Positions 12,311 through 21,125 of a DNA stretch of 64,000 nt are shown piece by piece (the stretch's first letter is position 1; every line of letters begins with the position of its first letter). Origin of the DNA: Eledone cirrhosa (taxonomy: Eukaryota); assembly GCA_964016885.1 (NCBI GenBank), contig OZ024742.1, positions 279,186,001 through 279,250,000 of the forward strand, written 5' to 3'. The position numbers were made by a program, and so were the translations under genes. The notes beneath the pieces were generated by a model. The model did no database searches, was not told where the DNA came from, and saw only the letters and a list, made by a program, of their open reading frames with translations.

Positions 12311-12741
12311 ATATTGGTAAACGGAATAGAAAATGCTGACAAATTGCTCACAGTTGAAAAATGGTTTAGTTAGGAATAAAAGAGTATTAGTGATTGTATG
12401 GGTTAGTATTCAGTTGTGGTTTTAAGTTTTTAAGTTTTTACCGGTTGAGCATTTCTAAATGCTTTTCAAAAATAATTTTGAGATAGAGTGTCCTTGCTGT
12501 TTGCTCTGATCAGAGCAGAGCAAACAGCACGGACACTCTATCTCAAAATTATTTTTGAAAAGCATTTAGAAATGCGCAACCGGTAAAAACTTAAAAACTT
12601 AAAACGTCAACTTTAACCCATACAATCACTAATACTCTTTTATTCCTAATTAAACCATTTTTCAACTGTGAACAATTTGTCACCATTTTCTATTCCGTTT
12701 ACCAATATATAATAACTTGTGTGTTACACCTCTATTCTTTT
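12311..12741. repeat. Fold-back palindrome, family A (PLE 3'-end derived), between (TA)n tracts
   Basis: Arms of about 195 bp; axis at 12509/12510 in CTGATCAG; unpaired tail 12711-12741. Confidence 0.93.
12552..12588 (+). ncRNA. Variant minimal hammerhead (U3-A8, A13C), family A
   Basis: TTT TTGAAAA GCATTT ag AAATGC GCAAC CG GTA AAA; mirror copy on the other arm. Confidence 0.55.
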
Positions 12742-13026
12742 AACTATATATATATATATATATATATATATATATATATATATATATATATATATATATA
12801 TATATATATATATATATGTAAGAAAAACCACAGACCCTCCATCTCAACTCTACTTTTGAAAAGCAGAAGAACTGCGAAACCGGTAAAGGAACCAAATAAA
12901 TATATATATATTTAAAAAAAAAATAAGACTCCAGTTGCATTTTCGATTTCATACTTTCATTCGTGTAGGACACCTCGGTTATTTTTTCATTTTGTTAAAA
13001 AAAAAACAAAAAAACTTCACTTTCTA

Positions 13027-13775
13027 ATATATATATATGTATATACATATATATTATATATATATATAAATATTATATATATATATATATATATATATAT
13101 ATTATATATATATATATATATATATATATATATATTATATATATATATATATATTATATATATATATATATATATATATATATATATATATATATATATA
13201 TATATATATTATATATATATATATATATATTATATATATATATATATATATATATATATATATATATATATATATATATATATATATTATATATATATAT
13301 ATATATTATATATATATATATATATATATTATATATATATATATATATATATATTATATATATATATATATATATTATATATAATATATATATATATATA
13401 TAATATATATATATATAATATATAATATATATATATATATATATAATATATATAATATATAATATATATATATATATATATATATATTATATATATATAT
13501 ATATATTATATATATATATACATATTATATATATATATATATATATATATTATATATATATATATATATATTATATATATATATATATATTATATATATA
13601 TATTATATATATATATATATATATATATATATTATATATATATATATATATATATATATATATATATATATATATATATATATTAGGTATAGGATTATCC
13701 AAGATATATTATATATATATATATATATATATATATATATATATATATATATATATTTATATATATATATATGTA
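13027..13775. repeat. Interrupted (TA)n microsatellite
   Basis: Direct read. Confidence 0.97.
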
Positions 13776-13980
13776 TGTATATTACTACATGCAATTATAA
13801 AGAAAATCGTGAAGAATAATATTTCTATAATAATAGGGAGAACTACCTTGCCTGTATTTCTCCTCTGTGTATATATGATATTTATATTGAGCTAATTATC
13901 TTACAGGTAATTGGATAATATAAAATAATGCCCTTATCTTATTTATAATTCTATATATAAGTATAACTATATATATATAT

Positions 13981-14072
13981 AGGAACTTCGACGGCTAATT
14001 CTCTACTACCCTAAGTATTGAGTACTTTGGTGCGTTACGGTCCACCTGGTTCCTTACCATATTTCCTTCGTT
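13981..14072 (-). repeat. Family C terminal fragment
   Basis: Reverse complement of 16109-16180 and 28838-28910. Confidence 0.75.
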
Positions 14073-14109
14073 ATATATATATATATATATATATATATAT
14101 ATATATAAG

Positions 14110-18084: not shown

Positions 18085-19545
18085 TCAGACTTTTTATATC
18101 CCGTGTTCAGAACCCATCGTGGATAACTTTGCCTTTCGTCCTTCCGTGGTGGATAAAATAAAGTACGAGTGGAAGTATCGGTAGAGGGTCGGACAACATG
18201 CTTTGCAGCATAGAGTTACGACCCTTTAGTGTCTGAGTTCAAATCCCATCGAGGTTAACTTTGCCTTTCATCCTTACGGGATCGATAAAATGAAGTACCA
18301 GTCATGCACTGGAGTCGATTTAATTGACTTTCCCATCCCCCAAAATTGCTGGCCTTGTGCCTATATAAGGAACTCTTATTTTAAGAAGTGGGATTGGTAG
18401 TATCTTTATGGCTTCATAGAAATTATTTTTACATGTTGGGCGAAGCATCTGTTGCGGCATTTAGCGTTCTGAGCTCAATTCTCACTGAACTCAACTTTGC
18501 CAGTCATCATTTCTGGGTTATATAATAAAGTATCAGGCAAATTCTAAGCTCAGCTGAATCGTCTTTCCCATCTTTCAAATTGCTGGTCTTGATTACATAT
18601 TGGAAATGATTATTTTAAGGGCAGTCTTTTTGGCAGAATCGTTAGGACATAGGAAGAAATGCCTTGCGTTATTACATCTGAATTAACGCACTGACGTCGA
18701 TTAATCGACTTTCCCCTTCCCATAAAATTGCTGGTCTTGTTCCTATAGTATAAATCGTTATTACCTCTGAATTTTTCGTTATATTATGAGTTAAAATGGT
18801 ATCGATGACATTGTTGACAAGTATTCTTCCGGGGAGGGTAAAATAATGTACCATCAATTCCTCGGCTCGGTTTTATCCATTATTTCATCCATAGAAATGT
18901 TTGGTCTCTGCCTATGTATGCAAAACATATTATTAATTATTATTAAGCTGTTCAATGTCCTGGACCACTGTTGTATTAATTTTCATCCATTTGCATTCTG
19001 ATTTTTAATGTCATCGAGGTAAAGAGGTAAAGTCTTATTTTCATTATTCGGGGTTCGAGTGAATACAGTACCAGTAAAGTTCTAGGGTACTATAATCAAA
19101 TTCAATTGCTGGTCTTGTGCCTTTATGATAAATTATTATTTGGGTAAAATTCCATTGCGGCATTGTTCCGCTTCTTAATGTTTTGCTTTCAAATTCTGCC
19201 GAGTTCATGGCCTTTATCCTCCCGGCTCGATAAAATATGCACCAGTGATGAACTGGGCTTGATTAACTCAATTCATTCTTCCACCCAATTTCTGGATTTG
19301 TGCTTCTTTTATAAATCATTGCTAAAATAGGTTGGCGTAGGTTTAACAGAAGATTGTCAGTCAAAACATCTTGCAACATTTAATTATTCCTCTCTATGTT
19401 CTGATTTCAAATCCGACCATGGCCACAATTACATTTAATCATGAAGAGCTGTAAAGATAAAGTACAAGTAAAGAACTAGACCGGATTTAATCAAATTTCC
19501 CCGCCTCCAAAAATTGCTGGCCTTATGCCGAAATTAGAAATCATT
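18085..19545 (+). mobile_element. Tandem cluster of about 7 degenerate tRNA-derived SINEs (Meta-domain type)
   Basis: Repeated gttcaaatccc..actttgcctttcatcc..gataaaat..gtaccag..aaattgctggccttgtgcc. Confidence 0.8.
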
Positions 19546-20393
19546 AGTTATATTAAGAGTTATTTAACTTATGACACCAGGAATGCAATCCATCTTGAAA
19601 GTTTCTCAAGGAAGCCAATGTAAACATTGATAGAATTCAATAAACATTCACACAACTTCGTATTTGTTTCTCCGTCTCCTCGTTTACGTCAGATGTCGAT
19701 ATGTTTGAATAATGGCTTTAGGTAACCTAATTGAGCAGTCAGTAACTCAGTAACAATCTTAACCGTCGCAGTTTGCTTCTTCTGCAAGATATTATAATCA
19801 CTGTGCAGTGCTTCGTCAATTATTTATAGCTCATGCCATTGTTGTAATGAAAACTGTTGGTGGGTGTTGACTTCTTTACGTGTGAATGTTGAAGACATGT
19901 TTATAAGCTAACCTTCCATAGAGAGAAACTTGACATTGTGATGTCATATACTGAGATGAGTAAACGTTACAAAAAGAATCACAATATTTCTTCAAAAGAA
20001 GAAAGTAGGGTGCTCTTTGTATGTATGTATGTATGTATGTATGTATGTATGTATGTATGTATGTATGTATGTAGTAGTTAGGTATGTATGTAGGTAGGTT
20101 GGTAGTTATTCAGGTACGTATGTATATAATGTGTGTGTGTTTGTTTGTGTGCTTGTTCGAACACATCGATACTACTGTTTCAAAATTTTTGGGAAAGATT
20201 TTTCTTATTTCTTTATTAGTTCGAAACACTAGCCCTCTTAAATATGTGCGTAAGACCGTTTCGAATGTTACATAGCTCATATATATATACAGGGAGTGTA
20301 ACGCGAAGTTACTATAGGTTCACCCAGGTGAGCACTCGATGTTTAGGTTCACGTCAGTATCGAGGTGTAGAGCAAAACAGATTGTAATATAAT

Positions 20394-20690
20394 AATATAA
20401 GGACGATTTGTTAGGCTTTCATTACGGTTATTGATTGGTGAGGCGCGTTTCGCTATTGATCAGCTCAAGGTTCGATCTCTGTCGATTGGGCCTGACTCTG
20501 GAATCAAAAGCTCGTCGGATCTCTGTTGATGTAATGACAGATTCTGTCATTACTATAAGAGAGGTCCGACGAGCTCTTGATTCCAGAGTCGGGCCCGATC
20601 GACACAGATCGAACCTTGAGCTGATCAATAACGAAACGCGCCCCACTAACCAATAAATGTATTGAAGGCTTAACCAATAGTCCTTATATT
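20394..20690. repeat. Fold-back palindrome with a 1-nt loop
   Basis: Axis at 20542 (gtaatgacaga-t-tctgtcattac); arms about 148 bp; reciprocal ORFs on both strands. Confidence 0.93.
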
Positions 20691-20716
20691 GTATATATAT
20701 ATATATATATATGTGT

Positions 20717-21125
20717 AAAAGAATAGAGGTGTAACACACAAGTTATTATATATGGGTAAACAGAATAGAAAATGCTGACAAATTGTTCACAGTGAAAAAT
20801 AGTTTAATTAGGAATAAGTGAGAATTAGTAATAGTATTGGTTAGTATTCAGTTTTGGTTTTAAGTTTTACCGGTTGCGCATTTCTAATGCTTTTCAAAAA
20901 TAATTTTGAGATAGAGTGTCCGTGATGTTTGCTCAGATCAGAGCAAACATCACGGACGCTCTATCTCAAAATTATTTTTGAAAAGCATTAGAAATGCGCA
21001 ACCGGTAAAACTTAAAACCAAAACTGAATACTAACCAATACTATTACTAATTCTCACTTATTCCTAATTAAACTATTTTTCACTGTGAACAATTTGTCAG
21101 CATTTTGTTTTCCGATTACCAATAT
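20717..21125. repeat. Fold-back palindrome, family A, second locus
   Basis: Axis 20937/20938, equivalent to that of 12311-12741; tail on the left (opposite orientation); variant HHR at 20975-21010 (+) with a mirror copy. Confidence 0.93.

What the first reader, a model, noticed from the sequence alone, without database searches (positions are those of the whole stretch)
12311..21125. Two separate family A palindromes fold back at the same axis
Seen: 12311-12741 and 20717-21125 are diverged copies in opposite orientation. Both turn at tgctc(t/a)ga|tcagagca and both keep a ~30-nt unpaired tail on one side only. Inference: either the palindrome itself is the replicating unit, or fold-back recurs at a hotspot. 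Random 5' truncation would not be expected to give this.
Basis: partly seen in the sequence, partly recalled or inferred. Interest (0 to 1): 0.75.

Follow-up and report, generated by a model that had tools for sequence, protein, structure and literature searches.

The report
Penelope palindromes at fixed copy edge
The two mirror-image sequences are real, short, back-to-back copies of the end of a very common Penelope-type jumping gene; about 1,400 insertions in this genome turn at the same spot, likely because two DNA copies run off the same end of the element's RNA and are joined head to head, not because the palindrome copies itself.

Summary
Confirmed. Both palindromes, the shared GA|TC axis and the one-sided 31-nt tail are real, and the flanks are unrelated. 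[quoted passage not shown] Inverted pLTR plus one-sided tail is the published insertion pattern. Genome-wide there are 1,384 head-to-head junctions at this site. The palindrome is not the replicating unit: arms share subfamily type within 55 of 56 loci, every subfamily has long parents, and junctions vary. Simple fold-back fits poorly: the centre base is 13 A:13 T relative to the tail, and in 17 of 29 uneven pairs the tail-less arm is the longer. Non-inverted copies stop at the same place, with 259 ending on one base. Best reading: two target-primed cDNAs run off a fixed RNA 5' end and are joined. Unexplained: upstream pLTRs of ORF-bearing copies read through this site (1 of 21 stop, against 45 of 100). 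No RNA data were available. This scan noted the same pattern earlier in other Penelope families of this genome.

The parts
12315..12509 (-). Copy 1, tail-less arm of the PLE 3' end (subfamily A1), inverted
12502..12517 (.). Copy 1 head-to-head junction, axis 12509|12510; a 5-nt local duplication follows in the sense arm
   Evidence: similar small duplications in other A1 junctions
12510..12711 (+). Copy 1 sense arm (pLTR)
12555..12585 (+). Minimal hammerhead-like motif, U3-A8 core, but GCAA in place of GAAA; activity untested
   Evidence: U3-A8 variant described in PMC4209133
12712..12742 (+). Copy 1 31-nt tail; in 147 genomic places it runs on into the 5' UTR and ORF start
20716..20746 (-). 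Copy 2 31-nt tail
20747..20937 (-). Copy 2 tail-bearing arm (subfamily A2)
20930..20945 (.). Copy 2 junction, axis 20937|20938, with unpaired A/A at 20935 and 20940
20938..21124 (+). Copy 2 tail-less arm, with the hammerhead-like motif at 20978-21007
58508..58880 (-). Third family A copy (older type), tail plus arm continuing past the axis into the 3' UTR, not inverted
12160..12314 (.). (TA)n target tract left of copy 1; (TA)n tracts also flank the other ends of both copies

Best explanation
Each palindrome is one insertion of a Penelope-like retroelement's 3' end, likely made when the element's protein nicks both strands of a (TA)n tract, primes two cDNAs (one from the tail end, one 31 nt further in) and both run off a fixed 5' end of the RNA, where they are joined head to head. 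Shown: parent element, tail continuing into the ORF, one tail per pair, a base-sharp end at reference position 226 (counted from the tail end), junction variety, and arm kinship within loci. Inferred: that position 226 is an RNA 5' end (transcription start or a cut), that both cDNAs come from the same RNA or source locus, and that joining uses the few self-complementary bases at the ends. In the TGATC variant the ends pair over CTGATCTG with two T:T mismatches, giving the GA|TC axis of the window. In the older TAATC variant they overlap by CTG with one T:T mismatch, giving an axis shifted by 2.5 nt. When only one cDNA is kept, a solo pLTR ending at the same place results.
For: Parent ORF has RT and C-terminal GIY-YIG. 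45 of 100 arms end at positions 210-231; 10 of 27 terminal A1 arms that reach 190 (after moving L258 to 'long' by eye). Solo ends into (TA)n, forward strand only: 680 for positions 216-238, 42 for 227-247, 47 for 149-171; 259 copies on both strands end exactly at G226 in one target phase. A blunt 226+226 junction exists (C1:356405839). Centre base relative to the tail is 15 A:15 T in 30 rows, 13:13 after removing 4 rows of two-tailed loci; all four mismatch outcomes occur at the GATC axis, 14/10/5/1 of 30. 39 of 40 head-to-head pairs not joined to an ORF carry exactly one tail; in 17 of 29 uneven one-tailed pairs the tail-less arm is the longer. Arms share subfamily type in 55 of 56 palindromes; distance 1.9% within against 6.8% between loci. 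Tail arms do not cluster on the tree (48 changes, shuffled mean 45.6). In vitro a lizard PLE cuts and extends both strands and starts at two sites that bracket the tail (PMC11167929).
Against: No RNA evidence for the 5' end. Upstream pLTRs of ORF-bearing copies do not stop there (1 of 21 that reach position 190; Fisher P=3.4e-4), which a single transcript starting at 226 would predict; a second template class must be assumed. The parent carries its own inverted repeat CTAATC-T-GATTAG centred on position 225, a coincidence that self-priming explains directly; L298 ends at 231. Arms share locus-private variants (22 of 33 doubletons), which also fits copying in cis or later conversion. Uneven pairs could have been shortened by later deletion, and 20 of the loci were picked as visible pairs. 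The DPE-like GGAC(G/A) lies at +20 from A225, not at about +28 (spacing recalled). Pattern counts use motifs of differing strictness.
Confidence: 0.62

Rival explanations
1. Self-priming or fold-back in cis: one cDNA reaches the parent's short inverted repeat, hairpins and copies itself back (the reading offered in PMC3846280 for palindromic junctions).
For: Native inverted repeat at the axis; arms share private variants, 22 of 33 doubletons; one junction (L152) looks like priming on the GATAGAGC/GCTCTAATC hairpin.
Against: Solo copies stop at 226, before the second half of the repeat is copied. Centre base 13:13. A shorter arm with a tail cannot be copied from a longer tail-less strand, yet 17 of 29 uneven pairs are so. 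cDNAs passing the same sequence in upstream pLTRs rarely invert there (1 of 21).
Confidence: 0.15
2. The end point is a stall or roadblock for RT that acts only in the pLTR where copying began (bound protein or RNA hairpin), not an RNA 5' end; joining is still of two cDNAs.
For: Explains why upstream pLTRs read through without a second RNA class; a GAGC/GCTC hairpin is predicted at positions about 195-225.
Against: Ends fall at the far (5') side of the hairpin with a one-base edge; only 6 of 100 arms end at 190-209.
Confidence: 0.13
3. The palindrome is itself a non-autonomous unit copied whole from a few master palindromes.
For: 33 of the first 50 listed junctions have the same 34-nt length; a few A1 junctions with small duplications suggest a template that already held junction sequence.
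Against: No left-right asymmetry recurs in more than 4 of 56 loci, tail arms do not cluster; each subfamily has long parents with the matching axis variant; solos end at the same site.
Confidence: 0.07
4. Assembly artefact or local segmental duplication.
For: Long-read fold-back chimeras can mimic palindromes (recalled); no contig laid spans the whole palindrome.
Against: Arms differ by independent changes (65 unshared derived sites in 22 A1 loci), the tail is one-sided, flanks are unrelated, 1,384 junctions share the site.
Confidence: 0.03

Closest known systems
EN+ Penelope-like elements, insertion units with inverted 5'-truncated copy and one-sided 30-40 bp tail (PMC8557442 Fig. 2, passages read; PMC3846280, passages read)
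   Same: Partial tandems forming pLTRs, adjacent inverted copy, 31-nt tail on one side that continues into the ORF, palindrome at the inverted junction, microsatellite targeting.
   Different: Here the ORF-less pLTR palindromes are counted genome-wide, the end point is resolved to one base, and the evidence favours two primed strands over the self-priming proposed in PMC3846280.
Neptune clade of PLEs (features from PMC8557442, passages and section 11)
   Same: C-terminal GIY-YIG with CCHH-type residues, CX2-5CxxC linker, GxKF and DKG motifs, (TA)n targets.
   Different: Long N-terminal region (about 450 aa, no Pfam match), 1.2-1.4-kb 3' UTR with minisatellite, hammerhead-like core with GCAA; tree placement not tested.
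PAc Poseidon element of Anolis (PMC11167929, parts 1-2 of 4 read)
   Same: Two RT start sites bracketing the tail; both target strands cut and extended; AT-rich targets.
   Different: Other clade; that work did not follow how the two cDNAs are joined or where they end.
LINE-1 twin priming (recalled, no call)
   Same: Two target strands each prime a cDNA and the products are joined, giving an inversion.
   Different: In L1 the second primer anneals far upstream so the parts do not overlap; here both start within 31 nt, so the sequence is duplicated as a palindrome.
Drosophila virilis Penelope internal promoter in the pLTR (PMC2377424, passages read)
   Same: A transcript that starts inside the pLTR would give a fixed 5' end.
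   Different: No start site mapped here; DPE-like spacing does not match.

Membership tests
EN+ Penelope-like element | RT domain in the parent ORF | tested here: met
   Pfam RVT_1 E=1.4e-5, 25.4 bits, below the curated cut-off of 29.6; YLDD and GTAMG motifs seen
EN+ Penelope-like element | GIY-YIG endonuclease | tested here: met
   PF01541 E=1.7e-6, above cut-off, downstream of RT
EN+ Penelope-like element | Partial tandem forming pLTRs | tested here: met
   L291, L303; 147 pLTR-ORF junctions
EN+ Penelope-like element | Optional 30-40 bp tail that is the start of the downstream unit | tested here: met
   31 nt, continues into 5' UTR and ATG
EN+ Penelope-like element | Inverted 5'-truncated copy adjacent to the insert | tested here: met
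   42 head-to-head pairs
EN+ Penelope-like element | Minimal hammerhead in the pLTR | tested here: inconclusive
   U3-A8 core, stem II and palindromic ACCGGT present, but GCAA instead of GAAA; no Rfam hammerhead match in 10000-24000; cleavage untested
Neptune clade | CX2-5CxxC linker between RT and EN | tested here: met
   CDRPNCGIC, read by eye
Neptune clade | CCHH motif in the nuclease | tested here: met
   CSGC inside the GIY-YIG core and two later His, by eye
Neptune clade | RT phylogeny with Neptune references | not tested
   No reference proteins were fetched; Nematis is not excluded by tree
Hydra clade | No CCHH, CxCX5C linker, DKT motif, under 3 kb | tested here: not met
   CCHH-type residues, CX4CxxC, DKG and 5.4 kb (definition)
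Naiad/Chlamys | N-terminal endonuclease | tested here: not met
   Nuclease is C-terminal
MITE or fold-back DNA transposon | Fixed unit with symmetric terminal repeats copied whole | tested here: not met
   One-sided tail, 5'-truncated relatives, RT parent, arms pair within loci
Non-LTR retrozyme | Head-to-tail tandem arrays of a short hammerhead unit | tested here: not met
   Short copies are solo or head-to-head in the sampled loci; definition from 10.64898/2026.07.22.740005, abstract and passages

The most novel reading that the evidence does not exclude
This PLE uses two RNA template classes. A linear transcript starting at position 225-226 inside the pLTR is primed internally at its 5' pLTR-ORF junction and yields only solo pLTRs and pLTR palindromes. 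A circular or multimeric RNA with no end at that site yields the long and full-length copies, whose upstream pLTRs therefore read through it. The genome would then record both the start site and, indirectly, the circular template proposed in PMC4209133.
Probability: 0.3. Interest if true: 0.7.

Novelty: new member of a known kind. Interest (0 to 1): 0.42.

Why it matters
How Penelope-like elements form their inverted pLTR and tail structures is described as unresolved in PMC8557442 and PMC11167929. This family gives thousands of junctions, a predicted RNA 5' end to one base and three counts that separate two-strand priming from self-priming, so one 5' RACE and one two-template reaction would settle it. 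The structure itself is ordinary for PLEs.

Tried and rejected
Rfam scan of 10000-24000 gave only hairpin and microsatellite matches below gathering scores. Whole-window repeat finder was swamped by (TA)n. One search used a query containing the axis, so it was not used for axis frequency. RNA runs: no RNA holder listed. Laying DNA contigs: no piece spans the palindrome; not used for or against. Hammerhead cleavage as the end point: rejected, the predicted cut is about 73 nt downstream and has no pile-up (47 against 680). Splice acceptor or trans-splicing as the end point: rejected, solos join (TA)n directly, not an upstream exon or leader. Cap signature (extra C): a few junctions have an extra C after position 224, but G and parental point changes also occur in the 100 listed rows; inconclusive. 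Hydra assignment suggested by earlier notes: not met for this family. Ends at 1121-1310 and 926-958 are partly chaining breaks in the minisatellite, so long-arm end points are approximate. Paper searches listed no paper that applies 'twin priming' to PLEs or maps such an edge; subscription papers (for example the 2005-2006 PLE reviews) are not in the library, and no supplements were read, including those of PMC8557442 that may list this family.

Full report
Observation. Both palindromes are present as described, in opposite orientation, each inside (TA)n. Axes are 12509|12510 and 20937|20938; tails are 12712-12742 and 20716-20746, 31 nt. The copies are 86-87% alike and the arms 93-97% complementary. 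Two-kb flanks share nothing. A third copy at 58508-58880 passes the axis without inverting.

Identity. The window lies in a 3.0-Gb genome. Non-palindromic relatives continue past the axis into a 3' UTR of 1.2-1.4 kb and then an ORF. [quoted passage not shown] The tail continues into the 5' UTR and start codon at 147 places. This is a Penelope-like element of about 5.4 kb with Neptune-type motifs; Hydra and Naiad features are not met (definitions from PMC8557442, passages and section 11); no tree was built. Two arm motifs have 3,709 and 5,643 exact matches and a shared one 12,181. The arm holds a U3-A8 minimal-hammerhead-like motif with GCAA for GAAA (PMC4209133 parts 1-2 of 4 read). Inverted copy plus one-sided tail is the published PLE pattern (PMC8557442; PMC3846280, which notes palindromes at the inverted junction and proposes self-priming).

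How fixed is the axis. Positions are counted from the tail end of copy L034. Of 100 arms taken in genome order with a motif that excludes the axis, 45 end at 210-231; the others are scattered up to several kb (both arms of a pair can be counted). For subfamily A1, to which copy 1 belongs, 10 of 27 terminal arms reaching position 190 end there and 16 run on (L258 reclassified by eye). There are 1,384 head-to-head junctions at the site (control 3); of the first 50 listed, 33 have the window's 34-nt form, 6 a 39-nt form and 11 are ragged. Long copies invert at scattered points.

Is the palindrome the unit? No. In 56 palindromes with two near-complete arms, both arms carry the same subfamily type in 55; L224 is a mosaic. 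Distance is 1.9% within and 6.8% between loci. Tail arms need 48 changes on the tree against a shuffled mean of 45.6; of 33 variants seen in exactly two palindrome arms 22 are in the two arms of one locus (chance 56 of 6,216 pairs, my arithmetic); no arm asymmetry recurs more than 4 times. Each subfamily has long parents, and the junction form follows the parent's variant. The tree had no long A1 rows; these were found afterwards. Conversion looks limited: 10 shared against 65 unshared derived sites in 22 A1 loci.

One strand folding back, or two strands? At the 39-nt junction the centre base relative to the tail is 15 A:15 T in the 30 fetched rows of 110 matches, 13:13 without two-tailed loci; at the 34-nt junction all four outcomes of two T:T mismatches occur, 14, 10, 5 and 1 in 30 of 144 matches. 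Among 42 head-to-head pairs, 2 join an ORF; of the other 40, 39 have one tail, 1 has two, none lacks both. In 17 of 29 uneven one-tailed pairs the longer arm is the tail-less one, which a single folding strand cannot give unless later deletion is invoked (20 loci were chosen as visible pairs). This matches a PLE protein that cuts and extends both strands from two start sites bracketing the tail (PMC11167929).

What fixes the end. Solo arms joined to (TA)n end in the same window: forward-strand counts 680 for 216-238, 42 for 227-247, 47 for 149-171 around the predicted ribozyme cut (motifs differ in strictness). 259 copies end exactly at G226, and a blunt 226+226 junction is listed. Of 18 hotspot solos in the 100-arm sample 16 are tail-less. 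Such an edge is best read as the 5' end of the RNA, at a TCAGA motif that resembles an initiator (recalled); D. virilis Penelope starts inside its pLTR (PMC2377424, passages). Two cDNAs ending at 226 explain both junction forms by end pairing. No RNA run was listed to test this.

Against, and unexplained. The parent has its own inverted repeat centred on 225, so palindrome-guided pairing or self-priming is not excluded. The DPE-like motif is at +20. In 30 of 147 upstream pLTRs joined to an ORF, only 1 of the 21 that reach 190 stops at 210-231 (P=3.4e-4 against 45 of 100). So the site is not a general RT barrier, but long copies are also not made from an RNA that starts there. Either two template classes exist (linear and circular or multimeric; circles were proposed in PMC4209133) or the stop is tied to the pLTR where copying began.

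Prior knowledge. Earlier unchecked notes of this scan reached similar readings for other PLE families in this genome; none matched this sequence. My two-strand, fixed-end reading was written before that look-up; the solo-end tests came after it. Five paper searches listed no paper giving this joining model for PLEs; the library is incomplete and supplements were not read.

Verdict. A real, known kind of insertion by a Neptune-like PLE family. The added value is mechanistic and inferred: a base-sharp end, evidence for two primed strands, and the read-through contrast. Interest 0.42.

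Noticed in passing
window 12818-12900: Short solo stub of a sister family, about 80% like family A over 65 nt, with a canonical GAAA U3-A8 hammerhead motif at 12856; it begins near the position equivalent to the family A axis.
   Followed up: partly
window 20394-20690: A separate palindrome of another family with a hammerhead-like CTTGAGC...GAAAC motif and one-sided extension, directly next to copy 2.
   Followed up: no
window 21180-21450: Solo repeat between (TA)n tracts with a canonical CTGATGA...GAAAC hammerhead core at 21366.
   Followed up: partly
window 15534-16083, 28067-28288, 45868-46205, 46309-46838, 47738-48129, 54030-54410, 59749-60106: Seven more local palindromes, several with a one-sided extension and (TA)n flanks, likely other PLE families; hammerhead-like motifs at 46459 and 47940.
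   Followed up: no
window 7924-9588: Rearranged RT-coding fragments with PLE-like motifs and an inverted 234-nt segment; RVT_1 E=4.7e-5.
   Followed up: partly
window 23104-25254 (-): Open 716-aa frame with a strong RVT_1 match (E=6.7e-31), a non-LTR retrotransposon.
   Followed up: partly
window 37398-38499 (-): Broken non-LTR RT, RVT_1 E=1.8e-8.
   Followed up: partly
window 34409-35866 and 55807-57302 (-): Frames with PLE-like motifs by eye, no Pfam match; the first is GC-rich with strong skew.
   Followed up: no
L014-L017 (G000 C3:34.88-34.92 Mb): Four identical truncated family A junctions about 9-12 kb apart, carried in a larger tandem duplication.
   Followed up: no
L224: One palindrome arm has a central patch of an older subfamily: template switch or ectopic conversion.
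   Followed up: partly
family A, positions 219-231: The parent's inverted repeat CTAATC-T-GATTAG is perfect in one set of copies and broken on either side in others; it may be the fossil of an old head-to-head junction.
   Followed up: no
family A solos: Solo copies ending at the hotspot are mostly tail-less (16 of 18), and G226 is followed by one phase of the TA repeat far more often than the other.
   Followed up: partly
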